A DNA stretch of 64,000 nt from an uncultured Bacteroidota bacterium (lineage in GTDB: Bacteria > Bacteroidota > Bacteroidia > Bacteroidales > JAAUTT01), in the NCBI GenBank assembly GCA_963766305.1, contig CAVYAE010000034.1, forward strand, positions 202,041 through 266,040, in the 5' to 3' direction. Positions 7,475-60,605 of this stretch are shown here, piece by piece (the stretch's first letter is position 1; the number at the start of each line of letters is the position of its first letter). Below the pieces are notes generated by a model. That model saw nothing but the letters and a program-made list of their open reading frames with translations. It was not told the DNA's origin and did no database searches. The translations under genes were made by a program, and so were the position numbers.

Positions 7475-9598
7475 ATGAAAAAAACAACTTTACTTTTTTT
7501 AGGCATCTTAATGTCAGCAATGAGTGCAATGTACGCAGGCACGTACACGCCACCCCAATACGAGGATACTGTATCCGGCGTTTGGAAAACAGGTTCGACC
7601 ATCAGGCTCTTTAACAGTATACTTATTCCTCCGGGAAAATCCTTGACAATTGAGCCGGGTGTCACTGTTCTTATTTGTGATACTGGAACTGTAACAAGCA
7701 GAAATCAGTCGGGTAACAAAATTGAAATCGATGTACTGGGCGATTTTTATTGCCTTGGAACCGCTGCTCAGCCTAACTTAATAAAGGTTAACGACAGTTT
7801 GTTAAATCCTAATTCCTATGGTCCATACGGACAATACTGGGGTTCAATATTTACCGATACCAGCTGCCACGAATTTGTGTTCCTGTACACAGATATGAGC
7901 AATACCGGCTATGTAACTACCAGTACTTCTTACTCAGTACAACTTGGACTTTTTAAGGCTGCAGCCGGTGAAACCACACCTGAAATCTGCTACAGAGGCG
8001 GTATGGGAGTAAATGGCGGGACAACACCTCATGGTAAACTGGTTGTTGAACACAATACATTTCACAACACATCTGATGACTGTGTTTATGTACAGGGTGG
8101 AAACATCTTAATAGCATACAATACAGTTTATACAGAAGGTGAAACCGGTGGTGACTGCTTTGATATAAAATCAGGTTCATGGGGTGATATATGCTACAAC
8201 CTTATTTACAACCCTAATACAAATGGCGTTAAACTGGCCAACACCGGGGGTTTCAACCCGACAATCGATATAAATGCATACAATAATACCATAGTTAAAG
8301 CCGGCTGGAGAAGACCATCAGTTAAAGGTGGCAGTATGTGGATAGAATCAGCTGCTATCGGGTTCTTTTATGATAACCTTATTTTAGATTGCCGATATGG
8401 TTTAAAGAACAACGCATCCAGTGGTGGTGCTGATACTTCTTCCCGCTGGGATTACCAGTATTATTTCAACCATTCACAGCTTGGTATAGACCAGGAACAG
8501 CCACTTGCAGATGGTGGACCAACTGATGTGGTTGCAGGTCCCCATGATGTAAGAGATTCTTCTTTAAAAGCAAATAGCAGGATTGACCCTTTGTTTGTTA
8601 ACTACACCCCTGGTGATAGTTCAGTAGCTGTTGGAACTCAGGGTTTCTGGCTCGATTCAACGTATAATACCAAATACGATTTTCATCTTAGAAAAGGTTC
8701 TCCTGCAATTGGCAAAGGCACAACCAAAGTACCAAGTTTCTGGAATGTAACTCCTATAACTTTTACCGAGCATAACCCTGCATCGTATAATTCTCCTGCA
8801 GCCAATGCAACACCTGGTGCATTTGGAGTATTAGGAATTCAGATTTCTCCGAAACCAGTAACTTTAGCTAACGGAAAAACTGTAACACTTACTGCAACAA
8901 CTACCCCGGACACACTATCTTATACCTGGAGTACTTCAAACTCTGCAGTTGCCACTGTAAACGCAAGCGGATTAGTTACAGCATTAAAAACCGGAACAAC
9001 TAAAATATATGCAATTTCTAAAAGCCAGAATCTGGTTTACGACTCCTGTATGGTTTCAGTTTTCACCCCGGTAACCGCTATCAATCTTAATCCTTTGACC
9101 TTAACTTTGAAGGTAGACAGCATTAAACCATTAAATGCAACTGTAACGCCAACTTATGCAGATACCATTTCTGTTACATGGAATTCATCAAAAACTTCCG
9201 TTGCTACAGTAGATGCTAATGGAAATGTAAAAGGAGTTAGTCCCGGTACAGCTTATATCAGAGTAATTTCTAACAGCAATAATTCAATTAAGGATAGCAG
9301 TATGGTAACAGTTATTAACTCTACCGCTATTCTTACTGCTGAAGGAAATGTATCGAACCTGTCTGTTTATCCAAACCCTGCCAATACTGATTTGAACATT
9401 AAGTTTAACGCTACTGAAGAAAGATCAACTATTTCAGTTTATTCACTTGTTGGTCAGGCTATTATAAGTACTTCCGTTTCGAATAGTACAGGAGAGGTGA
9501 CCCACACCTTATCTGTTGATGGACTTGCAAAAGGTTTATATATAATCAGAGTCCAAAACGGGGATCAGACCTTAACACAGAAGTTTATTAAACAATAA
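7475..9598 (+). CDS. secreted right-handed beta-helix protein with two Big_2 Ig-like domains and T9SS C-terminal sorting domain
   Basis: Signal peptide; repetitive beta-helix-like N-terminal two-thirds; two VTLTATTTP.../SSNSAVATVNASGLVTA-type Big_2 modules; C-terminus VYPNPANTDLNIKF...GLYIIRVQNG. Confidence 0.75.
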   Translation: MKKTTLLFLGILMSAMSAMYAGTYTPPQYEDTVSGVWKTGSTIRLFNSILIPPGKSLTIEPGVTVLICDTGTVTSRNQSGNKIEIDVLGDFYCLGTAAQPNLIKVNDSLLNPNSYGPYGQYWGSIFTDTSCHEFVFLYTDMSNTGYVTTSTSYSVQLGLFKAAAGETTPEICYRGGMGVNGGTTPHGKLVVEHNTFHNTSDDCVYVQGGNILIAYNTVYTEGETGGDCFDIKSGSWGDICYNLIYNPNTNGVKLANTGGFNPTIDINAYNNTIVKAGWRRPSVKGGSMWIESAAIGFFYDNLILDCRYGLKNNASSGGADTSSRWDYQYYFNHSQLGIDQEQPLADGGPTDVVAGPHDVRDSSLKANSRIDPLFVNYTPGDSSVAVGTQGFWLDSTYNTKYDFHLRKGSPAIGKGTTKVPSFWNVTPITFTEHNPASYNSPAANATPGAFGVLGIQISPKPVTLANGKTVTLTATTTPDTLSYTWSTSNSAVATVNASGLVTALKTGTTKIYAISKSQNLVYDSCMVSVFTPVTAINLNPLTLTLKVDSIKPLNATVTPTYADTISVTWNSSKTSVATVDANGNVKGVSPGTAYIRVISNSNNSIKDSSMVTVINSTAILTAEGNVSNLSVYPNPANTDLNIKFNATEERSTISVYSLVGQAIISTSVSNSTGEVTHTLSVDGLAKGLYIIRVQNGDQTLTQKFIKQ

Positions 9599-43243: not shown

Positions 43244-43329
43244 AAAACATATAAACAAATAAACATTTTCTATAATTGTAAAATATAAACTCTTATTTCA
43301 AGTTATCAATAAAATAACCTTAATAATTT

Positions 43330-46023
43330 GTGAACCGGTATTTTAAAATATTTTCGGGTTTTCTCTGGTTTATAGTACTATTTTTAGTTTCATGTTCAAA
43401 TCAGAAGAATACTCCCACAACCAGGGCTTATCACAATCTCACTGCGCATTACAATGTCTTGTTCAATGGCAGCGAGAGTTTTAGGAAAGGCTTAAAAAGA
43501 ATTGATGCTACATTTAAAGATGATTATTCTAAGATTTTACCTGTTTTTACATATGAAGATGATGCCATAGCCAAATCTATTTCTCCCGAAATGACTGTTG
43601 CTATAAATAAAGGAGGCAAACTTATTTTCCTGCACTCCATAAAAGCTAAGCCTAAAATGAAAAAAGGCCATCTCACCCCCAAAGAAAAAGCATTTTACGA
43701 TAAAAACGAATATAACAAGTGGGTGGATGTTGCTTATATGATGATGGCAAAGGCTAATTTTTACAAACATTTTTACAAGCCTTCTGCTGAAATATTAAAT
43801 TTTGTAGAAAGGGAATTTGAAAAAATGCCCGCCCAGTATGAGGCCATGATATGGAGGGCCCGCATAAGTACTGAATATAAGGATTATGGTGATGCTTCGC
43901 GCATTTTAACCTTGCTGGAAAGTGAAAAGGAATTTCCGGAAAATTTAAAATTCGATTTATACATTACAAAAGCAGACGTTGCTCTTAAACAAAACCAGTA
44001 CGATGCAGCTATCACACCTTTAAAAAAGGCATTGCAGCTCGTCAGATCAAGAAATTTAAAACTGCGGTACTCATATATTTTAGCACAGGTTTATCAGAAA
44101 ACAGGCGACTTCAAAAATGCTTCTGCCTTGTACAAATATATAATTAAAAAGAATCCTCCCTATGAAATGAGTTTTAATGCCAGGATTAACCTTGCTGCTA
44201 CTATTGATTACAGTGAAAAGAATATAGCATATATTAAAGCTCAGCTTAAGAAAATGCTCAGGGATAAAAAAAATACCGATTTTGAGGATCAGATTTATTT
44301 TGCCATGGGTAATATGGAAATGAAGGAAAATAATGAAGCCATGGCAATAGTTTATTACCGTAAATCAGTATCTGTGAGTAAAACAAATATAAATCAAAAA
44401 GGGTTATCGTGTCTTACTCTTGCTGATCTTTACTATGCAAAGAAAAATTATATACCTTCCCAGGCATATTATGATACCGCACTGCATTGCATAAATGAAA
44501 AATACCCCGATTATAAAAGTATCAAGTCCAGGGCCGATTGCCTGGTACATCTTGTATTAAATCTGAATACCATTGCTCTTCAGGATAGCCTTCAGCATTT
44601 AGCATCGCTGAGTGAAGATGAGCGACTTAGAATCATTGACGGTATTATAAGCGACCTTAAGAAAAAGGAAGCTGAAGAACAACTGGCAGAAAGCCTGCGA
44701 TTGCAGGAATATTATAATAGCCAAAATTCAAACAATGGTAACCCCGACCAAAACGCGCAGGCTAAATGGTATTTTTATAATCCGGTATCTATAGCACAGG
44801 GAGTGAAAGATTTTCAGCTAAGATGGGGTAAAAGGCAGCTTGAAGACGACTGGAGACGTAAAAACAAGGGATTTGTTGATGTAGCAGCGGATACATCAAA
44901 CACCGAAGCAGAAGGCGGAAACCAGGCTACGGATAAGAAAAAAGTTGAGGACAATAAAACCAGAAATTATTATACTCAAAACATACCTGTTAACGATTCA
45001 ATGATGCAGGCATCTACAAAAAAAATAATTGATGCATATTTTAATGCCGGGCTGGTTTACCGTAATGAACTGAACGATAATACGCAGGGAGTGCTGATTT
45101 ATGAAAAAATGCTTGACAGGTTTCCTGATTGTACATACAAACTCGCAGTTTATTATCAGCAATACATAATGTATACCGATTTGAATAATGGTGAAAAAGC
45201 TGCTTATTATAAAAACCTGTTGCTGACAAAGTACCCTGACTGCGTGTTCAGCAGAATTCTTACCGACCCTGAATACTATAAACAAATCATGGAAAACGAT
45301 CATTCGTGCGACAATTACTATGAATTAACATATAATCTGTATAACAGTGGTAACTATTCCAAGGTAATAGAAAATGCAGACAGCGCATTTATTAAATTTA
45401 AAAACAATCCTATTCTTCCAAAATTTGCATTTCTAAAAACGCTGGCTATTGGCAAGTCAGCTGATATAATGACTTTCCGGGAGGAACTGAATAAACTTGC
45501 AGCACAATATCCTAAGGATGATGTTGGTACCAGAGCCAAAGACATAATCACATATCTCGATAACTATAAACCGGAAACCAAGCAAAAAGAAGATATTAAA
45601 ATTGCAGAGGCAACATTTACCGTTACAGACAAATCAACTTATTATTTTGCTTTGGTTGTAGAAAAAAATGAAGATATAAACCAAATTGCCTTTGACGTAA
45701 TAAATTTTAACCTGGATAATTTTACAAATGATCATCTGGAAGTTACAAACGAAGTACAGGGTAAAAAATATAAAATCATCCTTGTAAAATCATTTCCTGA
45801 TCAATCCAAAGGCCTTACATATTACAATACCTTCATCTCTACCCCGGCTGTTCTTACAAATGTTAAAAGTCAGAACCGTACCATGTTTATTATATCACCC
45901 GACAATATGGAATTGTTACGGAAGCAGGATGCTTCCGATGGTTATTATGAATTCTTTACAAGGCATATTTTGAAGTCTGCAGACGACAGCGTTGATTCTG
46001 CAGCGATAAGTAACCATAAATGA
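43330..46023 (+). CDS. porW: TPR lipoprotein, PorW/SprE-like T9SS component
   Basis: Lipobox LVSCSNQKN followed by TRAYHNLTAHYNVLFNG (SprE-like N-terminus), multiple TPRs, about 900 aa, directly upstream of porX; GTG start. Confidence 0.65.
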   Translation: MNRYFKIFSGFLWFIVLFLVSCSNQKNTPTTRAYHNLTAHYNVLFNGSESFRKGLKRIDATFKDDYSKILPVFTYEDDAIAKSISPEMTVAINKGGKLIFLHSIKAKPKMKKGHLTPKEKAFYDKNEYNKWVDVAYMMMAKANFYKHFYKPSAEILNFVEREFEKMPAQYEAMIWRARISTEYKDYGDASRILTLLESEKEFPENLKFDLYITKADVALKQNQYDAAITPLKKALQLVRSRNLKLRYSYILAQVYQKTGDFKNASALYKYIIKKNPPYEMSFNARINLAATIDYSEKNIAYIKAQLKKMLRDKKNTDFEDQIYFAMGNMEMKENNEAMAIVYYRKSVSVSKTNINQKGLSCLTLADLYYAKKNYIPSQAYYDTALHCINEKYPDYKSIKSRADCLVHLVLNLNTIALQDSLQHLASLSEDERLRIIDGIISDLKKKEAEEQLAESLRLQEYYNSQNSNNGNPDQNAQAKWYFYNPVSIAQGVKDFQLRWGKRQLEDDWRRKNKGFVDVAADTSNTEAEGGNQATDKKKVEDNKTRNYYTQNIPVNDSMMQASTKKIIDAYFNAGLVYRNELNDNTQGVLIYEKMLDRFPDCTYKLAVYYQQYIMYTDLNNGEKAAYYKNLLLTKYPDCVFSRILTDPEYYKQIMENDHSCDNYYELTYNLYNSGNYSKVIENADSAFIKFKNNPILPKFAFLKTLAIGKSADIMTFREELNKLAAQYPKDDVGTRAKDIITYLDNYKPETKQKEDIKIAEATFTVTDKSTYYFALVVEKNEDINQIAFDVINFNLDNFTNDHLEVTNEVQGKKYKIILVKSFPDQSKGLTYYNTFISTPAVLTNVKSQNRTMFIISPDNMELLRKQDASDGYYEFFTRHILKSADDSVDSAAISNHK

Positions 46024-52277: not shown

Positions 52278-53348
52278 ATGACACAGTTTGCAGTTTTACA
52301 TATCGACAAAAACAAGGGAGGCCAGATTGGTTTGAGCAAACACATCAGCCGGGAAACAATACCCGCCAACGCTGATCCTTCCAGGTTGCACCTCAATGAA
52401 ACACCCGTTGGAACACGTAACCAGATGCAGGATATTAAAAACCGTATAAACGAAGGTGTCAGTCAAAAAACATCCATAAGGAAAGATGCTGTAAAAGCCA
52501 TGCAAATAATTTTGACAGGCAGTCATGAACAGATGAAGGTTATTGAAAACAACGGCCAGTTAAATGACTGGATGAATCAGAACATTTCCTGGTTAAATGA
52601 AACCTTTGGCAAGGCCAACGTGGTAAATGTAACTCTCCATATGGATGAACTGACCCCGCATGTTCATGCCACCGTAGTGCCTATTACCAAAGACGGAAGA
52701 TTATGCGCCAAAGATTTTATGTCAAGGGATCAGTTGCGGAGTTACCAGACTGGCTATGCCAAAGTAATGGAACCTTTTGGACTTTCCCGCGGGCTGGAAG
52801 GCAGCAGGGCCAAACATCAGGATGTAAAGCAATATTATGCAAAACTTAACCATGAACTACCTAAAATAAACAAGGAACTTGAAGAAAAACAGGAAACTGT
52901 AAAAGTGCTTAAAAATGAGATCAGGGTTGACTCTGCATGGAAGACAGTAACAGGTTTGGTAGATGGGTTTGCAAAAAGAAAAGAAATAAAAGACAAGGAG
53001 GAAGAAATTTTATTATTGAAGAAAACAGTTGAACAACTTTCTGTCAATCTTGAAAATTTGAAGAAGGAACATGAAAAGTCGGGCATTGAATTAATTAACA
53101 CTAAAAAAGAATTTTCATCCTTGCATTCTGAGATAGATAAAGCATTTAAAGAAGGTATAAAGAAAGCAGTAAGTACAGTTAATAATTTAATATTCAGTCA
53201 AATTGAAAAGCCAAATTTTCAGTTTGAACTTACCTTCAAAAACGAAAAGCCTGTAATAGAATTGAAACATATCAAACCAACAAATCATGTGCCTACAGTG
53301 GAAGAGATTATGGGTAAAAAGATAAGGAAAAACAATTTGGAGCTGTAA
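52278..53348 (+). CDS. MobV-family (Mob_Pre) relaxase / plasmid recombination enzyme
   Basis: N-terminal FAVLHIDKNKG, motif HMDELTPHVHATVVP (HxDE..PHxH), coiled-coil C-terminal half. Confidence 0.85.
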   Translation: MTQFAVLHIDKNKGGQIGLSKHISRETIPANADPSRLHLNETPVGTRNQMQDIKNRINEGVSQKTSIRKDAVKAMQIILTGSHEQMKVIENNGQLNDWMNQNISWLNETFGKANVVNVTLHMDELTPHVHATVVPITKDGRLCAKDFMSRDQLRSYQTGYAKVMEPFGLSRGLEGSRAKHQDVKQYYAKLNHELPKINKELEEKQETVKVLKNEIRVDSAWKTVTGLVDGFAKRKEIKDKEEEILLLKKTVEQLSVNLENLKKEHEKSGIELINTKKEFSSLHSEIDKAFKEGIKKAVSTVNNLIFSQIEKPNFQFELTFKNEKPVIELKHIKPTNHVPTVEEIMGKKIRKNNLEL

Positions 53349-53374: not shown

Positions 53375-54826
53375 ATGCAAACAACTAAAACTATAACTTA
53401 TATTACTCTGTTAATGTTATTTTTTATGAACAGTGTTATCGCACAAAAAATAACTATACAGGGCACCAAGTTTTACAGGGACGGACAAGAGATTTGGTTT
53501 AACGGAGCCAATACTCCCTGGGACAACTGGAACGATTTTGGAGGAAACTACAACCACCAGTGGTGGGACACTGCTTTTAAATACCTGCAAAGAGCCCACA
53601 TCAACATGACCAGGATATGGATAAGCTGTTCAGGTGAAGTTGCCCCAACTATAGACAGTTCTGGAACGGTGACAGGTGTGATACCTGCATTTTGGTCCGA
53701 TGTAGATGATCTTGAAAGAATTGCAAATAAATATCAAATATATGTGCTTTCGACCATGATGTCTTTCGACAATTTTGAAAATAACCATCCTGATTCATCC
53801 AGTTGGAGGAAAATGATTAGCGATTCATCCAAAGTGAGGACTTATATAAATAATTATCTGGTACCATATGTTCAACGCTATGATAGCAGTAATTACTTTT
53901 ATGCAATAGATCTCTGCAATGAGCCGGAATGGATAAACCAAAACGCTGCCGAAGGTAAGTTACCTGTTTCATATCTGCAAAGATTTGCAGCTATGTGCGC
54001 CTCTGCAGTGCATAAAAACAGTTCAAAGCTTGTCACAATTGGCAGTGCAAGTGTAAAATGGAACAGCAGCAGCAAAGGTTCACAATTTGTTGCAAACTGG
54101 TGGTCAGACGCAAACCTTAAAGATGCCAATAATAACGACAGCACTTCACGTTTCGACTTTTGGCAAACTCACTATTATGACTGGATGTATCCTTATTATG
54201 GAGCCCCATTTACTAAAACCTTGGTCAGTTTTGGGATGACAACCGACAGACCAACCCTTGTTGGTGAGGGTCCGGGCAAAAATGATGAAGGATATTCCAT
54301 CATCCAAATGTACCAGTATACCTGGACTAATGGTTTTGCAGGTTACTGCTCCTGGACTTCCAATGGTGTTGATGGCAATGGCATACTTTCCGACTTCGAA
54401 CCTGGCACTGATACTTTTTTTACAAAACATATGCTGTTGGTTTACCCTTCAAATGTACCAGCATCCGGAATAAAAGTAAGTCCGGTTCAGGCAACTATTG
54501 CAAAAGGGCAAACACTACAACTTACCGGCACAGTTATACCACAAGGTGCAAGCCAGGCTGTAGCCTGGTCATCAAGCGATACATCCATTGCAAGGGTAAA
54601 TATCTGGGGTATGGTCACTGCTCTCGAACCGGGTAGTGTTATTATAACGGCAACATCAGCAGAAGGGGGTTTTACAACTACATCAGATATAACCGTTTAT
54701 TCGGGCACTGCCATTGAAACAAAAGAAAATGATGCTGCAAGCATAATTATTTATCCAAACCCATTAAATATTACCTGTTCACCTCTCCTGTTTTCCGCTT
54801 TGGGACACCCTAAAAATTTTTATTAA
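53375..54826 (+). pseudogene. GH5 glycoside hydrolase (mannanase/cellulase-like) + Big_2 domain, 3' end interrupted by IS insertion at 54786/54787
   Basis: Signal peptide; DLCNEPEW (acid/base NEP), LVGEG; Big_2 (VSPVQATIAKGQTLQLTGTV...SSDTSIARV). The ORF runs into the IS terminal repeat (..YPNPLNITCSP|LLFSALGHPKNFY*). Confidence 0.8.
54726..54786. repeat. left copy of 61-bp direct repeat (GH5 coding sequence) flanking the IS composite
   Basis: AAAATGATGCTGCAAGC...TTACCTGTTCACCTCT identical to 59003-59063. Confidence 0.9.
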
Positions 54827-56423
54827 TAATTTGATATAGTTCCGATTGTTCCTCATCCATATTCAGTAATCTGGATTTTGTTTGTTTGGATTCAGGTAAA
54901 GTGTATGTTATCTGATACATGTTATGAGTTATTTCAGCTGCTTTCTTAAGGGATAAAGTTGATTTCTCCAGGTAAAGTACCCTTTCTAACTCTTTGTAGA
55001 CACAATATGCAGTAAATGCGATACATATGTGAGCTTCAATGCGTCTTTCCAGTCTATGATAAATTGGCCTTATCCGAAGATCAGTTTTAGACATGCGAAA
55101 TGCCCTTTCAATATGCCAAAGATTTTTATAGTTTTCAACTATTTCATTTTCTGATAGTTTTGTATTGGTTATATATCCTTTCAATCCATCCCATTTCTGA
55201 TCATCATTGAATTTATCATAATCGATTTCAATTGTCACATCTCCAATTAGTTTTAAATATTTATTATAACCTTTGTTATTGATATTAGCTTTGGTTAGCC
55301 TGCCTCTATTTACCTGTTTTTCCAGTCTGGTTAAGCCACGTTTTCGGTTGTAGGCATCCTTTACTGCCCGGGTATTGGCATAACTTACGATCAGTCTTGT
55401 TCCTTTGGATTTTGAATAACTTTTTGTACCTCCATCTTCAAATACAGTGGATAATATCTGTGTTTTTAGAGTTTGAGTTTCATTTTTTATCCTGGCACCC
55501 AGAATATATTCATAATCATTAGCTTCTAATGCTTTAATATTCTCAGTAGACAAAAGTCCTGAGTCTGCAATTACAACCGGCTTGTTCAAATTAAATTTGG
55601 CACTTATCTTTTCAAGGAACGGTATCAGTGTGTGTCCTTCGTAAGTATTGCCCTGGAAAATTTCATATCCAATGGCATATCCTCCAAGCCCGACCAGTAA
55701 CCCGATAAATATTTGTGGACACTGATGTTTTCCATCTTTGCTAAATCCTGTTTTCCTGAGATCATCTTCATCACTGGCTTCAAAATACAAGGTAGTCATA
55801 TCGTAAAAAACAACACTGATCTCCCCGTTCAAAAGCTTTTTGGTGTGGGCAAATGCAATTTGTTCCACTTCAGGTTGTAGTTTGCTATTGAGCTTATCTA
55901 AGAAACGATAAATGACATCACTATCAAGGCTTACTCCTTGATATCTATATAAATAATCGATGGTTTTAAGTTTACTCAAAGGATAAGCTAAACGGGCAAT
56001 AACCAAATGCCGGAATAAATCTTCCTTGATTGATGAAAAACCGATATAATCATAAATTTTCCCAAAGGTGATTTCTGGTCCAAGGGTTCGGATATTGGAA
56101 TTATTTAAAACTTCAAATGCATGATCTATTGCAGAGTCACTAGGACCTAAAAACAATTTTGGTTGAGCAGTTAGCTTTTCTATCTCTTCGCGAGCCTTAC
56201 ATTCTAATTGTTCAATTTCCTGCTGTGTGGTGGCAGAACCTATTGTTTTTAATACTTTATAATTACCTCTAACTTTCTGTATCACTTGAATTGAGAGGCT
56301 TCCTGAGTGATTTGGTTTCCTACGGATGTACATAAAATAAAATTTCGGGACACCCAAATTAAAAAAACTTTCCTTATTTTACAAGGGTTTTAGAGGGTGT
56401 CCCGAAAAAGTGCGGAAAACAGG
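54787..56423 (-). mobile_element. IS1634-like (IS4-related) insertion sequence, complete copy (element A, 1637 bp)
   Basis: Termini CCTGTTTTCCGC...GCGGAAAACAGG, with imperfect about 25-30 bp inverted repeats including GGGACACCCT; single DDE transposase gene. Confidence 0.85.
54810..56333 (-). CDS. IS1634-family DDE transposase (element A)
   Basis: MYIRRKPNHSGSLSIQVIQK N-terminus, VVFYDMTTLYFEA (D), VVIADSGLLS (D), WHIERAFRMSKTDLRIRPIYH (E/K). The tracked ORF adds 8 codons from a TTG at 56357. Confidence 0.85.
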   Translation of the reverse strand: MYIRRKPNHSGSLSIQVIQKVRGNYKVLKTIGSATTQQEIEQLECKAREEIEKLTAQPKLFLGPSDSAIDHAFEVLNNSNIRTLGPEITFGKIYDYIGFSSIKEDLFRHLVIARLAYPLSKLKTIDYLYRYQGVSLDSDVIYRFLDKLNSKLQPEVEQIAFAHTKKLLNGEISVVFYDMTTLYFEASDEDDLRKTGFSKDGKHQCPQIFIGLLVGLGGYAIGYEIFQGNTYEGHTLIPFLEKISAKFNLNKPVVIADSGLLSTENIKALEANDYEYILGARIKNETQTLKTQILSTVFEDGGTKSYSKSKGTRLIVSYANTRAVKDAYNRKRGLTRLEKQVNRGRLTKANINNKGYNKYLKLIGDVTIEIDYDKFNDDQKWDGLKGYITNTKLSENEIVENYKNLWHIERAFRMSKTDLRIRPIYHRLERRIEAHICIAFTAYCVYKELERVLYLEKSTLSLKKAAEITHNMYQITYTLPESKQTKSRLLNMDEEQSELYQIINKNF

Positions 56424-56432
56424 AAATACCTT

Positions 56433-58079
56433 CCTGTTTTGTGCAATGCATGACCCAAATCAAAATTTCATTTTTATTAGTTGGTTCTGAATGGAGTTTA
56501 ATCGGAGTAATTTTTTCTTGACCTGCTTTGATTTAGGAAGTATATAGTTTATTTGTCTCATGTTGTTAATTTCCTTTAAGGCCTTTTCGGCTGATAATGA
56601 GATGTTATTTAATTTTAGTAACCGCTCCAACTCTTTGTATATTTTATATGCACAAAAACAAATGCACAGATGAGCTTCAATTCTCTCTCTAATTCTATGA
56701 TATATTGGCCTTATTCTCAGATCACTTTTAGAAATTCTAAACGCTTTTTCTATTTGCCATAACTGTCCATAATTAACTACTACATTCTTTGGAGACAAGG
56801 TAGTATTTGTAATATACCCTTTCAATCCATCCCAGAGACTATCCTCATTAAATTTTTGGTAATCAATGGCTATAGTTGCATTGCCAGTTAACGCTAAGTA
56901 TTTATTATACCCTCTGTTATTTATATGTTCTTTTGTTAGTTTTCCGGTTTTAACTTTTTTTTCCAGGCGTATTAACCCTTTCACCCTGTTTGCCTTATCA
57001 TTATGTGAGCGGGATGAAGAATATGTGACAACCAGTCTGCCATTGGAATGTCTCAATTCCTGTGGTTGACCTTCAATAAGTTTCATTTCCAAAACTCGAT
57101 TCTTAATCACCTCACTTTCATTCTTTAACCTGCCGCCTAAAATATATTGATAATCTTCTGCAACCAATGCATCTATGTTTTTCTGAGAAAGTAAGGCTGC
57201 ATCAGCAATAATTATGGGCTTATCTATTAAAAATCTCTTCTGGAATGCTTCCAGAACAGGAATCAGCGTTTTTGTTTCTGAGGTATTTCCTTCAAATACT
57301 TCATATCCTATCGGGTACCCGTTTATTCCAACCAATAAACCGATTACTATTTGTGGTTGTTGAAATTTACCGTCTTTTGAATAGCCGATTACTCGAAAAT
57401 CATCTTCTTCTGAAGCCTCAAAATACAAGGTGGTCATATCATAAAACACAACGCTTATTTTACCTTGCAATAGAGCCTTGGTGTGAGAAAAGGTAATATT
57501 TTCTATTTCCTGTTTGTATTTCCTGTGTAGTTCATCCAGATATCGATAAACTGTATAAACACTGATATCAATGTTTAAATGTTCTTTAAAATATTCTATT
57601 GTCTTTAACTTGCTGCCTGGATAAACTAATCGACATAGCACTAAATTTCTAAACAAATTATAATTATCATCCTGTGGATAGCCAATTTGTTGATATATTT
57701 TGCCTAATATCAAATCTGCCCCCACAATTTTTAAATTTTCAACTGACAAACTATCAACAAAAGAATCTATTACAGCATCATCATGCTCATAAAACAAACT
57801 CTGATAACCTTGCATTTGTTCCATCTCATTTTGTGCTTGCAAAAGCAACAATGATTCTTCCTGCTTGGTTTTGGCACATCCAATAGTCTTCAATACTCGG
57901 TTCTGTCTTCCGATTTTTGTTACAATCTGAATACTGATTGAGCCACTACGATTCCTATTTTTCCTGATAAACATTCTGCAAATATAGCTTGCAGCACCCA
58001 AAATGACCCATTTTATTTCTATTATTATCTGATAACTTGACATTTATATTTTGAGCGCTCATGTGGCGCACAAAACAGG
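56433..58079 (-). mobile_element. second, related IS1634-like insertion sequence (element B, 1647 bp)
   Basis: Termini CCTGTTTTGTGC...GCACAAAACAGG; own transposase, with roughly half its residues identical to A by eye. Confidence 0.8.
56460..57974 (-). CDS. IS1634-family DDE transposase (element B)
   Basis: MFIRKNRNRSGSISIQIVTK..., VVFYDMTTLYFEA, IIIADAALLS, WQIEKAFRISKSDLRIRPIYH; tracked ORF extends to 58043. Confidence 0.85.
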   Translation of the reverse strand: MFIRKNRNRSGSISIQIVTKIGRQNRVLKTIGCAKTKQEESLLLLQAQNEMEQMQGYQSLFYEHDDAVIDSFVDSLSVENLKIVGADLILGKIYQQIGYPQDDNYNLFRNLVLCRLVYPGSKLKTIEYFKEHLNIDISVYTVYRYLDELHRKYKQEIENITFSHTKALLQGKISVVFYDMTTLYFEASEEDDFRVIGYSKDGKFQQPQIVIGLLVGINGYPIGYEVFEGNTSETKTLIPVLEAFQKRFLIDKPIIIADAALLSQKNIDALVAEDYQYILGGRLKNESEVIKNRVLEMKLIEGQPQELRHSNGRLVVTYSSSRSHNDKANRVKGLIRLEKKVKTGKLTKEHINNRGYNKYLALTGNATIAIDYQKFNEDSLWDGLKGYITNTTLSPKNVVVNYGQLWQIEKAFRISKSDLRIRPIYHRIRERIEAHLCICFCAYKIYKELERLLKLNNISLSAEKALKEINNMRQINYILPKSKQVKKKLLRLNSIQNQLIKMKF

Positions 58080-58912
58080 AGAATATATTCATAATCATTA
58101 GCTTCTAATGCTTTAATATTCTCAGTAGACAAAAGTCCTGAGTCTGCAATTACAACCGGCTTGTTCAAATTAAATTTGGCACTTATCTTTTCAAGGAACG
58201 GTATCAGTGTGTGTCCTTCGTAAGTATTGCCCTGGAAAATTTCATATCCAATGGCATATCCTCCAAGCCCGACCAGTAACCCGATAAATATTTGTGGACA
58301 CTGATGTTTTCCATCTTTGCTAAATCCTGTTTTCCTGAGATCATCTTCATCACTGGCTTCAAAATACAAGGTAGTCATATCGTAAAAAACAACACTGATC
58401 TCCCCGTTCAAAAGCTTTTTGGTGTGGGCAAATGCAATTTGTTCCACTTCAGGTTGTAGTTTGCTATTGAGCTTATCTAAGAAACGATAAATGACATCAC
58501 TATCAAGGCTTACTCCTTGATATCTATATAAATAATCGATGGTTTTAAGTTTACTCAAAGGATAAGCTAAACGGGCAATAACCAAATGCCGGAATAAATC
58601 TTCCTTGATTGATGAAAAACCGATATAATCATAAATTTTCCCAAAGGTGATTTCTGGTCCAAGGGTTCGGATATTGGAATTATTTAAAACTTCAAATGCA
58701 TGATCTATTGCAGAGTCACTAGGACCTAAAAACAATTTTGGTTGAGCAGTTAGCTTTTCTATCTCTTCGCGAGCCTTACATTCTAATTGTTCAATTTCCT
58801 GCTGTGTGGTGGCAGAACCTATTGTTTTTAATACTTTATAATTACCTCTAACTTTCTGTATCACTTGAATTGAGAGGCTTCCTGAGTGATTTGGTTTCCT
58901 ACGGATGTACAT
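58080..58912 (-). pseudogene. truncated element-A transposase (N-terminal about 277 codons only)
   Basis: ORF 58025-58936 is identical to the 515-aa protein up to ..EANDYEYIL, then reads into the element B terminus (LFCAPHERSKYKCQVIR*). Confidence 0.85.
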
Positions 58913-59002
58913 AAAATAAAATTTCGGGACACCCAAATTAAAAAAACTTTCCTTATTTTACAAGGGTTTTAGAGGGTGTCCCGAAAAAGTGCGGAAAACA
59001 GG
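58080..59002 (-). mobile_element. partial copy of element A (right-hand 923 bp, equivalent to 55501-56423)
   Basis: Sequence identical to 55501-56423 wherever compared; ends with the same GCGGAAAACAGG terminus. Confidence 0.85.
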
Positions 59003-59063
59003 AAAATGATGCTGCAAGCATAATTATTTATCCAAACCCATTAAATATTACCTGTTCACCTCT
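59003..59063. repeat. right copy of the 61-bp direct repeat
   Basis: Identical to 54726-54786. Confidence 0.9.
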
Positions 59064-59256
59064 TTATATCAAAGGTTTGACAAAAGGCAGCCTGGAACTA
59101 ACATTAAGTGATATTGAAGGCAGAATTATTTACACGGATAAATCTTTTATTTCAGAATCGGTTTATTCATTATCTCTTGGGAATATTACCAACGGATATT
59201 ATAATTTAAGGATTATAAATAACGGCTTGGTTTTCACTAAAAAACTTATTATTTAG
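59003..59256 (+). pseudogene. orphaned 3' end of the GH5 gene encoding its T9SS C-terminal sorting domain
   Basis: Own translation in the GH5-continuing frame: NDAASIIIYPNPLNITCSPLYIKGLTKGSLELTLSDIEGRIIYTDKSF...GYYNLRIINNGLVFTKKLII*, stop at 59254-59256. Confidence 0.8.
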
Positions 59257-59270
59257 AATTACTCCCTTCC

Positions 59271-59620
59271 AATGTCCGGAAATAAAGCCGGATGCAAGGC
59301 TTGCGCAGTCAGAAAAAGCGGAGTTTACTGAGGTAAATGAGCATTTTTATGACAAGCATAACACAGCAGCTGGTGTTTATATGATAATGTCCGGAAATAA
59401 AGCCGGATGCAAGGCTTGCGCAGTCAGAAAAAGCGGAGTTTACTGAGGTAAATGAGCATTTTTATGACAAGCATAACACAGCAGCTGGTGTTTATATGAT
59501 AATGTCCGGAAATAAAGCCGGATGCAAGGCTTGCGCAGTCAGAAAAAGCGGAGTTTACTGAGGTAAATGAGCATTTTTATGACAAGCATAACACAGCAGC
59601 TGGCTTTATTTCCGGACATT
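59271..59620. repeat. three head-to-tail copies of a 115-bp unit; the last copy closes a 120-nt imperfect palindrome with 19-bp perfect terminal inverted repeats
   Basis: Units start at 59271, 59386, 59501 and are identical over the first 100 nt. AATGTCCGGAAATAAAGCC (59501-59519) is the reverse complement of GGCTTTATTTCCGGACATT (59602-59620). Confidence 0.9.
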
Positions 59621-60605
59621 ATTTGGAAAGAAGCCATACATCCTGCATCCCCCTGTTAGCCTTTAACCTTTCACATTCAGCCATTGCTTTGTCTTTTTCT
59701 CCGAATTCACCAAGTGACACCCTGTAAAGATCTTCACCAAACTTTAATACCTCGGCTTTTAGTCCGTTTTTTTCATATTGGCTTGCCTGAATGGTTGCCC
59801 TTTGAAATGTTTTAAAACTACCTCCAATAATAAAATAACTCCTGTCTCCCGAAGGTTGTACTTCTTCTTTTACAGAGTCCATGGCTAAAGCAGTTTTCTT
59901 ATCAGTTTTGTTATTGAAAAATTTTTCAAGATCGCTTTTTTTGGCAGTATCTTTCTTTTCTATTATAGCAGGTGCTGGAGCAGGTGCCGGAGAATTATTT
60001 TCATGAGCTACTGTGATTTTAGTAACAGGTTTGGCAGGTAAAAACCTGGCTTTGATATCATTAAAATTAATATAAACAGTTATTGCCCCTCCAACCAGTA
60101 TAATTGCAGCGATTACCATTATAATTGCTGAGGTACTTAATCTGGCATATTTAAATGATCTTGAAGAATTTAGTTGAGGCGGAAGAGTTATATCCAGAGG
60201 TTTATAATCAATTTTTGATAAGCCGTATGAATCAGTTAAAAAATTTGTTTCATTTTCACGATCGAACCGCAATTGTTCCTGATCCTTGGAAAAATATCCA
60301 ATGCCTTCCAAAAGAACGGTTTCTCCTTTATTTAGTTTTTTATTAAAAGCATCCACCTGGTGTCTGACAAATTTTTCTGCATTTTTTTTTGTCGTCTTCC
60401 TTAGCAGAGCTACCTGCTGAACGAAGAAATCGTCTTCAGCATTCAGGGTTTTGTCAAAATTGAGAATTTTATTTGGAGGAGTAATAGTATGGTCCTCAGA
60501 ATTAATTTCGGCTGCCCTGTAAATTGTATTAAATCCTCCAATTCCTGGAATTATTATAATATCATTTACATATAATAATTCTTTGATATAAAATGCTAAT
60601 TCCAC
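59619..60605 (-). CDS. SPOR-domain protein with HU-like N-terminal domain and one TM
   Basis: N-terminal ELLYVNDIIIIPGIGGF (HU-fold-like), TM (STSAIIMVIAAIILVGGAITVYI), C-terminal SPOR (YFIIGGSFKTFQRA...YRVSLGEFGEKDKA). Confidence 0.75.
   Translation of the reverse strand: MELAFYIKELLYVNDIIIIPGIGGFNTIYRAAEINSEDHTITPPNKILNFDKTLNAEDDFFVQQVALLRKTTKKNAEKFVRHQVDAFNKKLNKGETVLLEGIGYFSKDQEQLRFDRENETNFLTDSYGLSKIDYKPLDITLPPQLNSSRSFKYARLSTSAIIMVIAAIILVGGAITVYINFNDIKARFLPAKPVTKITVAHENNSPAPAPAPAIIEKKDTAKKSDLEKFFNNKTDKKTALAMDSVKEEVQPSGDRSYFIIGGSFKTFQRATIQASQYEKNGLKAEVLKFGEDLYRVSLGEFGEKDKAMAECERLKANRGMQDVWLLSK

What the first reader, a model, noticed from the sequence alone, without database searches (positions are those of the whole stretch)
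59271..59620. Three perfect 115-bp tandem units ending in a 120-nt palindromic element with 19-bp terminal inverted repeats
Units begin at 59271, 59386 and 59501 and are identical for 100 nt. Only the last ends with GGCTTTATTTCCGGACATT, the exact complement of the unit's first 19 nt, giving a long imperfect hairpin. The hairpin has inner partial symmetry around GTTTAC-TGAG-GTAAA, and GTCAGAAAAAGC faces GCATTTTTATGAC. Its right arm overlaps the stop codon of the convergent SPOR gene (59619-59621), and the array begins 15 nt after the GH5 stop. Each unit also carries an identical 19-codon ORF (MSGNKAGCKACAVRKSGVY). Perfect identity implies recent amplification or homogenisation. Possible identities are a MITE-like element with partial tandem duplications, a structured bidirectional terminator or sRNA, or an attachment or boundary site of the adjacent mobile region. 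I cannot place it in a known class.
Basis: seen in the sequence. Interest (0 to 1): 0.6.

Follow-up and report, generated by a model that had tools for sequence, protein, structure and literature searches.

The report
Tandemly amplified ERIC-like hairpin repeat
The three perfect 115-base units are a local triplication of one copy of a small hairpin-forming "selfish" DNA repeat that sits on the stop codon of a cell-division-type (SPOR) gene; the array itself is ordinary, but its repeat family has an identical tip in several bacterial phyla and docks on stop codons in one fixed direction.

Summary
Window 59271-59603 is a 115-nt unit repeated 2.9 times at 100% identity. Only the third unit closes into a 120-nt hairpin (-53.8 kcal/mol, z -7.8). 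A second assembly carries the identical three-unit array, so it is not an assembly artefact.

The unit belongs to a dispersed palindromic repeat family. There are 10 model hits in this genome, 79 in the closest congener G006, and hits in 37 of 121 genomes sampled across the order. Its apical motif, AAGCG(G/C)AGTTTAC-loop-GTAAATGAGCA, also occurs exactly in Pseudomonadota and other phyla.

The stems covary strongly. G.U pairs outnumber A.C pairs 85 to 7, so one particular strand is the one that folds.

In G006, 20 of 28 copies have the same terminus on the stop codon of an inward-reading gene. The SPOR gene here fits that rule, and G006 has an element at the orthologous SPOR stop. Eleven other congeners have none.

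Best reading: an ERIC-like, MITE-like repeat whose left arm plus core was amplified locally. It is not in Rfam and no transposase partner was found. Kinship to classical ERIC is only weakly supported. The 19-codon ORF and the attachment-site idea are not supported.

The parts
59271..59385 (+). Unit 1: left arm (AATGTCCGGAAATAAAGCCGG), core hairpin, then the 12-nt junction TGTTTATATGAT (59374-59385). It has no right arm.
   Evidence: covariance-model hit 59283-59375, 77.6 bits
59386..59500 (+). Unit 2, identical to unit 1. With the preceding GTGTTTATATGAT it has a longer left arm, homologous to the arm start of full-length relatives.
   Evidence: model hit 59398-59490
59501..59622 (+). Unit 3: the only complete palindromic element (left arm, core, right arm GGCTTTATTTCCGGACATT(AT)). 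Its last bases supply the SPOR stop codon.
   Evidence: model hit 59513-59605, 77.9 bits
59546..59573 (+). Apical module AAGCGGAGTTTAC-TGAG-GTAAATGAGCA: a 6-bp stem with an invariant G.U, flanked by GA/GA mismatches. It also occurs at 59316-59343 and 59431-59458. This is the part found as an exact pattern match across phyla (it was the search pattern).
59602..59620 (-). Right arm, the exact reverse complement of the first 19 nt of each unit.
59619..60605 (-). The HU-CCDC81 / SPOR-domain gene on whose stop codon the element is docked ([TAA]TGTCCGG...).
58942..59256 (+). T9SS C-terminal sorting-domain fragment of the Big_2 / T9SS gene. Its TAG stop lies 14 nt before the array. The gene is intact (534 aa) in the second assembly.

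Best explanation
The locus holds one copy of a dispersed, gene-less, hairpin-forming repeat that is MITE-like and resembles the ERIC/IRU repeats of enterobacteria. It was inserted exactly at the stop codon of the SPOR gene in the common ancestor of this species and its closest congener (shown).

In this lineage the segment 'left arm + core' was then duplicated and expanded to three copies, while the single gene-proximal right arm stayed unique (shown). The junction, CTGG|TGTTTATATGAT|AATG, lies at the base of the right arm (CTGG|CTTTAT in unit 3). Its 12-13 nt resemble the outer start of the family's left arm.

The most likely route is one illegitimate or microhomology-mediated event at the foot of the hairpin, where replication stalls at palindromes. 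Unequal recombination or slippage between the 115-nt repeats would then give three copies. Their perfect identity means the expansion is recent or kept uniform (inferred).

At family level the element behaves as a mobile palindrome that lands on the TA of stop codons in one fixed orientation. It is kept as a folded single strand, either RNA or single-stranded DNA (partly shown). The folded strand is the one antisense to the docked gene.

Its likely effect on the cell is that of a 3'-end hairpin between convergent genes, either a barrier or terminator or an mRNA-stability element as reported for Yersinia ERIC (inferred, untested). The array adds two extra core hairpins, each followed by a U-rich stretch on the + strand.
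For: Family membership:
- BLAST and covariance-model hits at 7 other sites of the own genome.
- 79 hits in G006.
- Hits in 37 of 121 genomes across the order.
- The exact apical motif in more than 120 stretches from several phyla.

Structure:
- 25 consensus pairs, 14 with compensatory changes.
- In 44 copies from G000 and G006, 93% of cells are paired against 84.5% in shuffles.
- The same set has 83 double-change cells against 17, with 0 of 500 shuffles as high.
- G.U against A.C is 85:7, and 98:19 in the cross-phylum set.

Docking:
- 20 of 28 G006 copies have the right terminus on the stop of an inward-reading ORF ([TAG]TGTC, [TAA]TTAGTGTC). At most 2 of 28 do so at the left end (binomial p 1.2e-4).
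- The same holds for own-genome copies C34, C20 and C38.

Orthology:
- G006 has an element in the same orientation at the SPOR stop.
- 11 other congeners have none.
- All keep the ...WLL(S/K)K-stop C-terminus.

Local amplification:
- No other 115-nt-spaced array appears among the listed hits in relatives.
- A second, older tandem (147 nt, 2.1 copies, 95%) at own-genome C30 has its junction at the same place in the right arm. A copy of the AGCCTGGC microhomology lies upstream.
- The junction 13-mer matches the arm start of relatives at 17/21 or 12/15 positions (chance about 1e-4 or less).

The array is real: an identical array is present in a second assembly.
Against: - Unit 1 is preceded by CTCCCTTCC, not by the junction sequence. 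A simple in-situ duplication by unequal crossover does not fully explain the left edge, so a later deletion, templated filler or another event is needed.
- No empty or filled pair among close strains was found, so the target-site duplication (TA?) and recent mobility are not shown.
- No transposase with matching ends was found.
- Abundant compensatory arm changes are not what a decaying classical MITE shows.
- The classical E. coli ERIC copy scores only 14.5 bits with the model, so homology to ERIC proper is weak.
- No transcription data could be obtained.
- The second assembly is 100% identical in its flanks, so it probably comes from the same population. It is a separate assembly, not a separate organism.
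Confidence: 0.75

Rival explanations
1. The units are functional RNA modules: a portable, possibly bidirectional, intrinsic terminator or 3'-UTR stability element. The triplication was kept because it reinforces insulation between the convergent T9SS-cargo and SPOR genes. This is compatible with a selfish origin. It is a rival only on whether the array is selected.
For: - The element fills almost the whole 362-nt gap between two convergent stops.
- In every subfamily the 3' arm begins with a U-rich run (GGCGTTTTCTT, GGCTTTATTT, GGACTTTATG) and the 5' arm with the matching A-rich run.
- In the array each core hairpin is followed by TGTTTATAT on +.
- The strand asymmetry and the fixed orientation at gene ends suggest selection at the level of a single strand.
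- ERIC in Yersinia alters the stability of flanking mRNA in an orientation-dependent way (review PMC2229807).
Against: - The consensus terminator scan finds none in 59257-59620.
- The strand that keeps G.U pairs is antisense to the docked gene, so the docked gene's own mRNA carries the weaker fold.
- No expression data are available.
- No other arrays appear in 79 G006 copies.
Confidence: 0.3
2. A tandem array of three small-RNA genes, each unit with its own promoter and hairpin, comparable to multicopy sRNA families such as FopS of Bacteroides.
For: Identical units have stable folds. Sigma-70-like matches ATAACA-16-TATGAT lie at each junction (59358-59385 and 59473-59500). A weak sub-threshold Rfam match of the E. 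coli relative to Xanthomonas sRNA sX9 hints that some relatives are seen as sRNAs.
Against: - Bacteroidota use a different promoter consensus (TAnnTTTG), which is not seen at the junctions.
- The junction promoter-like matches score only 9 of 12.
- There is no Rfam match.
- FopS has a different architecture, a single-stranded seed plus a terminator, and is in Rfam.
- Most family copies are single and glued to stop codons.
- The array is unique among the relatives searched.
Confidence: 0.07
3. A recombination or attachment site (attC-like, or the boundary of an integrated mobilisable element next to the Mob_Pre gene), with the units as reiterated half-sites.
For: It is an imperfect palindrome of attC-like length. 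A Mob_Pre relaxase gene lies nearby in both G000 and G006. IS elements are adjacent.
Against: - The conserved part is the centre, not the ends, which is the opposite of attC.
- There is no integrase and no cassette array.
- Genes left of Mob_Pre are housekeeping.
- The IS composite is absent in the second assembly while the array is unchanged.
- The same element sits behind about 20 unrelated genes in G006.
Confidence: 0.03
4. An assembly artefact: a single or double copy that a de Bruijn-graph loop inflated to three.
For: The units are perfectly identical, the period is shorter than a read, and a short-read Logan contig breaks inside the array. The genome is a 100-contig draft.
Against: A second assembly gives exactly three units. 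The junction sequence proves at least two units.
Confidence: 0.05

Closest known systems
ERIC / IRU / RU-1 (enterobacterial repetitive intergenic consensus; Sharples & Lloyd 1990, Hulton et al. 1991; review PMC2229807)
   Same: It is an imperfect palindrome of about 120-150 nt that lies outside genes. It has TA-containing termini, is gene-less, and its most conserved part is the centre. The central module has the same layout: AAGGC...GGAG(C/T)TTAC-loop-GTAA(G/A)TGA...AACGCAG, seen by comparing. Orientation-dependent effects on flanking mRNAs have been reported for ERIC.
   Different: The host is Bacteroidota rather than enterobacteria or vibrios. The model built from this family scores the E. 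coli ERIC copy at only 14.5 bits (E 0.003 in 736 nt). The arms are unrelated. Many copies have an extra half-arm on one side. I did not find stop-codon docking in a fixed orientation described for ERIC in the review read here.
A low-copy E. coli intergenic repeat (ycbX-rlmL and qseE-qseG spacers; median 5 places per genome). From memory it may be 'RSA' or Delihas's RU-3; the name is not verified.
   Same: It is the best match of the family model in a whole E. coli chromosome (E 4.9e-5 and 1.6e-4). The shared layout is CCGGAGCGTAC-loop-GTACGTGAGGATTTCGAG with flanking GA motifs and covarying stems.
   Different: The apical stem sequence differs (CGTAC rather than TTTAC). It is GC-richer and low-copy. 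It gives only a weak, sub-threshold Rfam match to sX9, on the opposite strand.
Classical bacterial MITEs (Correia/NEMIS, RUP, and others)
   Same: It is small, non-coding, dispersed and patchy between genomes. It has terminal inverted repeats ending in TA and is often co-located with gene ends.
   Different: No cognate IS with the same ends was found. The termini vary between subfamilies while the centre is nearly invariant. The arms change by compensatory pairs.
REP / BIME / REPIN elements mobilised by RAYT (Y1) transposases
   Same: They are extragenic palindromes with covarying stems and strand-specific features, with a single-strand hairpin as the likely substrate.
   Different: There is no GTAG or CGTC tag. 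The element is much longer. This genome and two high-copy genomes (G048, G059) have no Y1_Tnp gene.

Membership tests
ERIC / IRU | Imperfect palindrome of about 127 bp in intergenic, transcribed regions | tested here: met
   The complete unit is 120-124 nt and full-length relatives are about 125-150 nt. It is intergenic between convergent stops. Transcription was not tested.
ERIC / IRU | Conserved central inverted repeat of the ERIC consensus (GTGAATCCCCAGGAGCTTACATAAGTAAGTGACTGGGGTGAGCG) | tested here: inconclusive
   The layout is the same but the sequence differs. Family model R1 scores the ERIC copy L169 at 14.5 bits, E 0.003 in a 736-nt search, which is not significant genome-wide. ERIC matches Rfam V_AS5 (46.9 bits, below the cut-off) and the window element does not.
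ERIC / IRU | Occurs in Enterobacteriaceae and Vibrionaceae | tested here: not met
   The host is an uncultured Bacteroidia lineage.
ERIC / IRU | 5'-TA-3' at the termini with a TA target-site duplication | tested here: inconclusive
   Relatives end TAGTG...CACTA and the window copy ends ATAATG...CATTAT. Eleven congeners have an empty SPOR stop, but they are too diverged to read a duplication. No strain-level empty site was found.
MITE (non-autonomous DNA transposon) | Terminal inverted repeats, small size, multiple dispersed copies | tested here: met
MITE (non-autonomous DNA transposon) | A cognate autonomous IS with the same terminal repeats | tested here: not met
   No IS-sized pair of matching termini was found in G000 or G006. 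The IS4-type elements next to the array have different ends.
REP / REPIN (RAYT-mobilised) | GTAG or CGTC tag next to a short palindrome, with a RAYT (Y1_Tnp) gene in the genome | tested here: not met
   There is no such tag in the consensus. PF01797 is absent from G000, G048 and G059, although the latter two have more than 30 copies. A modest enrichment overall (34/37 against 54/84, p 0.0016) is confounded by mobile-element load.
Integron attC site | Conserved R''/R' end boxes with a variable centre, in cassette arrays next to intI | tested here: not met
   The centre is invariant and the ends are variable. Copies are solitary, sitting behind ordinary genes.
Rho-independent terminator | GC-rich short hairpin followed directly by a U-tract | tested here: inconclusive
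   The consensus scan finds none in the array. U-rich runs do follow the inner hairpins. No 3'-end data are available.
Any Rfam 15 RNA family (including FopS, sX9, V_AS5) | A match at or near the family's gathering score | tested here: not met
   There was no match on the element at E up to 10, and none on eight cross-phylum members at E up to 0.01.

The most novel reading that the evidence does not exclude
ERIC-type repeats may be only the enterobacterial tip of an undescribed, cross-phylum superfamily of hairpin repeats about 120-150 nt long. Its defining feature would not be the terminal repeats. It would be a strand-specific apical module: a 6-bp stem with a fixed G.U pair, two GA/GA mismatch motifs, and the AAGGC...AACG frame. 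These elements dock on the TA of stop codons in one fixed orientation, and the folding strand is antisense to the docked gene. Their arms change by compensatory pairs. Together this implies an unrecognised, widely conserved machinery that reads a single-stranded hairpin (single-stranded DNA or RNA) in order to copy, insert or maintain them. Under this reading the reiterated 'left arm + core' modules of this array are a footprint of that copying process (repeated restarts at the foot of the hairpin) rather than ordinary unequal crossing-over.
Probability: 0.2. Interest if true: 0.8.

Novelty: new variant of a known kind. Interest (0 to 1): 0.5.

Why it matters
The array itself is a small local curiosity. 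It shows that these palindromes can amplify in place, with breakpoints at the foot of the hairpin, and it nearly fills the gap between two convergent genes.

The family behind it matters more. How ERIC-like repeats move, and why they are kept, has been open since 1990-91. Three features found here make that question testable in cultured hosts that carry the motif, such as Alistipes, Pseudomonas and Halomonas:
- A near-invariant, strand-asymmetric apical module in several phyla.
- Precise docking on stop codons in one orientation.
- Compensatory evolution of the arms.

On the practical side, such repeats break short-read assemblies. They also create stop-codon-overlapping hairpins that gene and terminator predictors ignore.

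Tried and rejected
- **Rfam.** Scans of the locus, of eight cross-phylum members and of the E. coli relatives gave no usable family. Only sub-threshold V_AS5 (for ERIC) and sX9 hits appeared.
- **Literature.** A full-text search for the core motif found only chance primer matches. The MITE survey PMC11602168 mentions ERIC only in passing. FopS sRNAs of Bacteroides were considered and rejected on architecture.
- **Strain-level empty sites.** Exact-protein look-ups returned either one contig (uvrB) or three contigs that all carry the element (rimP-nusA spacer).
- **Autonomous partner.** A search for matching termini in G000 and G006 found none.
- **RAYT hypothesis.** It was tested by PF01797 presence and found not to be required.
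- **Template for the 12-nt junction.** A genome-wide search found no nearby source.
- **Orientation and stop-codon statistics on the GC-rich proteobacterial loci.** These were too noisy, because spurious long ORFs are common there, so they were not used.
- **MG1655 annotation.** It gave no name for the E. coli relative.

Full report
**Observation**

The sequence is as described.
- Tandem Repeats Finder gives 59271-59603, period 115, 2.9 copies, 100% matches.
- The repeat finder gives units starting at 59271, 59386 and 59501.
- The first 19 nt of each unit recur once in reverse complement at 59602-59620. Shuffles expect 0.05 such matches.
- Units 1 and 2 carry TGTTTATATGAT (59374-59385, 59489-59500) where unit 3 carries the right arm.
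- Unit 3 folds into a long imperfect hairpin: -53.8 kcal/mol on the + strand and -47.6 on the - strand, z about -8.
- The SPOR / HU-CCDC81 gene (59619-60605, - strand) ends with a TAA that overlaps the right arm.
- The upstream + strand frame ends at TAG 59254-59256.

**Is the array real?**

An exact-protein look-up of the SPOR protein returned another assembly (ENA ERZ25039486, contig_12153, 55 kb). It has the same three units letter for letter. In that assembly the upstream gene is an intact 534-aa Big_2 + T9SS-tail protein without the IS composite.

A short-read Logan contig stops inside the array, as expected for a perfect repeat. The flanks of the two assemblies are 100% identical. They are therefore separate assemblies of one population, not separate organisms.

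**The unit belongs to a dispersed family**

BLAST of the 120-nt element finds diverged copies on six other contigs of the same genome. The outer arms differ between copies yet stay complementary. For example, copy C20 changes AAAAA to CCAAA, and the opposite arm changes TTTTT to TTTGG.

In 41 relatives, 12 genomes have BLAST matches, with at least 22 each in G006 (same genus) and G040 (another family).

The hosts include:
- Bacteroidota: Alistipes, Tidjanibacter, Tannerellaceae, Prevotellaceae, Pedobacter, Flammeovirgaceae.
- Gamma-, Beta-, Zeta- and one Alpha-labelled Pseudomonadota.
- One record labelled Oligoflexales.
- One Bacillota MAG.

**Structure and strand asymmetry**

I aligned 54 members (A1). 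The consensus fold has 25 pairs, 14 of them with compensatory double changes. It contains:
- an invariant 6-bp apical stem with a G.U pair;
- two 5'-GA/5'-GA mismatch motifs;
- conserved AAGGC and AACG frames.

A covariance model (R1) gave these counts:

| Search | Hits |
|---|---|
| Own genome, including the three array units | 10 |
| G006 | 79 |
| Order-wide sample | 37 of 121 genomes, several at the 35-candidate scoring ceiling |

On 44 distinct copies from G000 and G006, 93% of cells pair against 84.5% in shuffles. There are 83 double-change cells against 17.3 ± 3.1, and 0 of 500 shuffles reach that.

G.U against A.C is 85:7, or 43:7 without the invariant apical pair. In the cross-phylum set it is 98:19. 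Together with the GA/GA motifs, which become TC/TC on the other strand, this shows that one particular strand folds. I call it the top strand; in the window it is the + strand. Whether it folds as RNA or as single-stranded DNA cannot be told from sequence.

**Docking on stop codons**

I oriented 28 G006 copies by the top strand. In 20 of them an ORF of at least 90 codons reads inward from the right and stops at the right terminus of the element. Typical junctions are ...AAA[TAG]TGTCTG... and ...[TAA]TTAGTGTC.... At most 2 of 28 show this at the left end (binomial p 1.2e-4). Own-genome copies C34 (SPOR), C20 and C38 follow the rule.

So the element starts with the gene's stop codon, and the folding strand is antisense to that gene.

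**The SPOR locus in the genus**

- G006 (SPOR 65% identical) has an element in the same orientation, with its terminal CTA giving the TAG stop.
- The other 11 congeners have no element there.
- All 13 keep the same C-terminus...WLL(S/K)K-stop.

The insertion therefore happened at the ancestral stop codon without changing the protein. It happened either in the G000 + G006 ancestor or, less parsimoniously, twice.

**Anatomy of the array**

Some full-length relatives read A'-A-core-a. The left side carries a second, partial and diverged copy of the arm, and the termini are TAATTAGTG...CACTAATTA.

In the window, the 13 nt GTGTTTATATGAT in front of units 2 and 3 align with the arm start of relatives (AGTGTTTGGATCAT...). 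The match is 17/21 or 12/15 depending on register, with a chance probability of about 1e-4 or less.

Read in the sense of the SPOR gene, the array is: one proximal arm, then three times (core + distal arm).

The junction CTGG|TGTTTAT lies where unit 3 has CTGG|CTTTAT. The breakpoint is therefore at the foot of the right arm, and TTTAT is shared.

A second, older tandem in the same genome lies on contig C30 (147-nt period, 2.1 copies, 95% matches). Its junction is at the same place in the right arm (AGCCTGGC|). A copy of that 8-mer lies upstream of the first unit, which is the signature of a microhomology-mediated duplication.

I therefore favour a first illegitimate event at the hairpin foot, followed by unequal recombination or slippage between 115-nt repeats.

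One point stays unexplained. Unit 1 is preceded by CTCCCTTCC and not by the junction sequence, and no nearby template for the 12-mer exists.

No similar array appears among the 79 G006 hits or in the listed order-wide hits.

**Comparison with known families**

- Rfam 15 has no match to the element or to eight cross-phylum members.
- An E. coli ERIC copy shares the layout AAGGC...GGAG(C/T)TTAC-loop-GTAA(G/A)TGA...AACGCAG. It scores only 14.5 bits with R1.
- The best genome-wide R1 hits in E. coli O157 (E 4.9e-5 and 1.6e-4) are a different low-copy repeat, in the ycbX-rlmL and qseE-qseG spacers. It has a median of 5 places per genome in all 5,426 genomes.
- ERIC itself matches Rfam V_AS5 below threshold. 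The other E. coli repeat weakly matches sX9 on the opposite strand.

'ERIC-like' therefore describes the architecture and a plausible distant kinship. It is not demonstrated membership.

- No IS with matching ends was found.
- Y1_Tnp (RAYT / IS200-type) genes are somewhat enriched in element-positive genomes (34/37 against 54/84, p 0.0016). They are absent from this genome and from two genomes with more than 30 copies.
- FopS sRNAs differ in architecture.
- Earlier notes of this scan reached the same 'ERIC-like superfamily' reading. I treated them as leads and re-derived the cross-phylum motif, the covariation and the stop-codon rule here.

The 19-codon ORF exists, but it depends on an ATG that relatives lack.

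The attachment-site idea fails for four reasons:
- The array is unchanged where the IS composite is absent.
- Genes beyond Mob_Pre are housekeeping.
- Mob_Pre is a lone gene, conserved next to SPOR in G006 too.
- The same element sits behind many unrelated genes.

A terminator or RNA role remains possible but untested. The simple scan finds no terminator, yet U-rich runs follow each inner hairpin.

**Verdict**

This is a real, locally amplified copy of a dispersed hairpin repeat. The array is ordinary in kind. The family has unusual, testable properties that I did not find described in the literature available here.

Noticed in passing
window 54810-58940: Three stacked or nested IS4-type (DDE_Tnp_1) transposase ORFs split the Big_2 / T9SS-tail gene: 54810-56357, 56460-58043, and a truncated 58025-58936. 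A second assembly (L215) has the gene intact at 534 aa. In the window, 62 nt (54725-54786 and 59002-59063) flank the composite on both sides, which is far longer than a normal target duplication. This may be an assembly join or a real long duplication.
   Followed up: partly
window 58922-58986: Inverted repeat TTTCGGGACACCC...GGGTGTCCCGAAA at the right edge of the IS composite. It is probably an IS end. A terminator-like site is called on the - strand at 58937-58923.
   Followed up: no
own genome C30:63341-63645 (L004:1280-1584): A second tandem duplication of the same repeat family: 147-nt period, 2.1 copies, 95% matches. Each unit includes a separate terminator-like hairpin (CCTCACTCAGAATTTCTTGAGTGAGG + T-run). 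The array starts 5 nt after a gene stop.
   Followed up: partly
G006 loci L302, L303, L304, L306; own genome C77:~9470-9570 and C32:~43300-43350: A second small repeat of about 78 nt (...ATCATGGGAAATCGACAATACCTT..., with its own short palindromes) is inserted inside several copies of the hairpin repeat, at different internal positions. Either it is a nested small element that prefers these hairpins, or the two families share targets.
   Followed up: no
L171:1300-1340 (G006, upstream of the SPOR element); also L210 and L214 flanks: Short minisatellites (TAGAGGTTG x4, GTTGTTAG-type, TTATTTAA-type) lie directly beside some copies in G006.
   Followed up: no
window 52278-53348 and L171:178-1251: A lone Mob_Pre (plasmid recombination enzyme) gene is conserved next to the SPOR locus in both G000 and G006. 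No integrase or other mobile-element genes are visible on its other side in the window.
   Followed up: partly
L183 (E. coli ycbX-rlmL spacer), L184 (qseE-qseG spacer): A low-copy E. coli repeat (median 5 places per genome) matches the family model better than classical ERIC does. It gives weak sub-threshold hits to Rfam sX9 on the opposite strand. Classical ERIC gives a sub-threshold hit to Rfam V_AS5.
   Followed up: partly
L178-L181, about 55-80 nt downstream of the SPOR stop: Four congeners without the element share a conserved stretch, AACACTGCGAAAAATCAGGATTT, after the SPOR gene. Its identity is unknown.
   Followed up: no
G006:C18:425159-425416 and C3:177429-177687 (L187, L192): Two head-to-head pairs of elements lie about 70 nt apart in G006. 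This is as expected if each of two convergent genes carries its own docked copy, but that was not verified.
   Followed up: no
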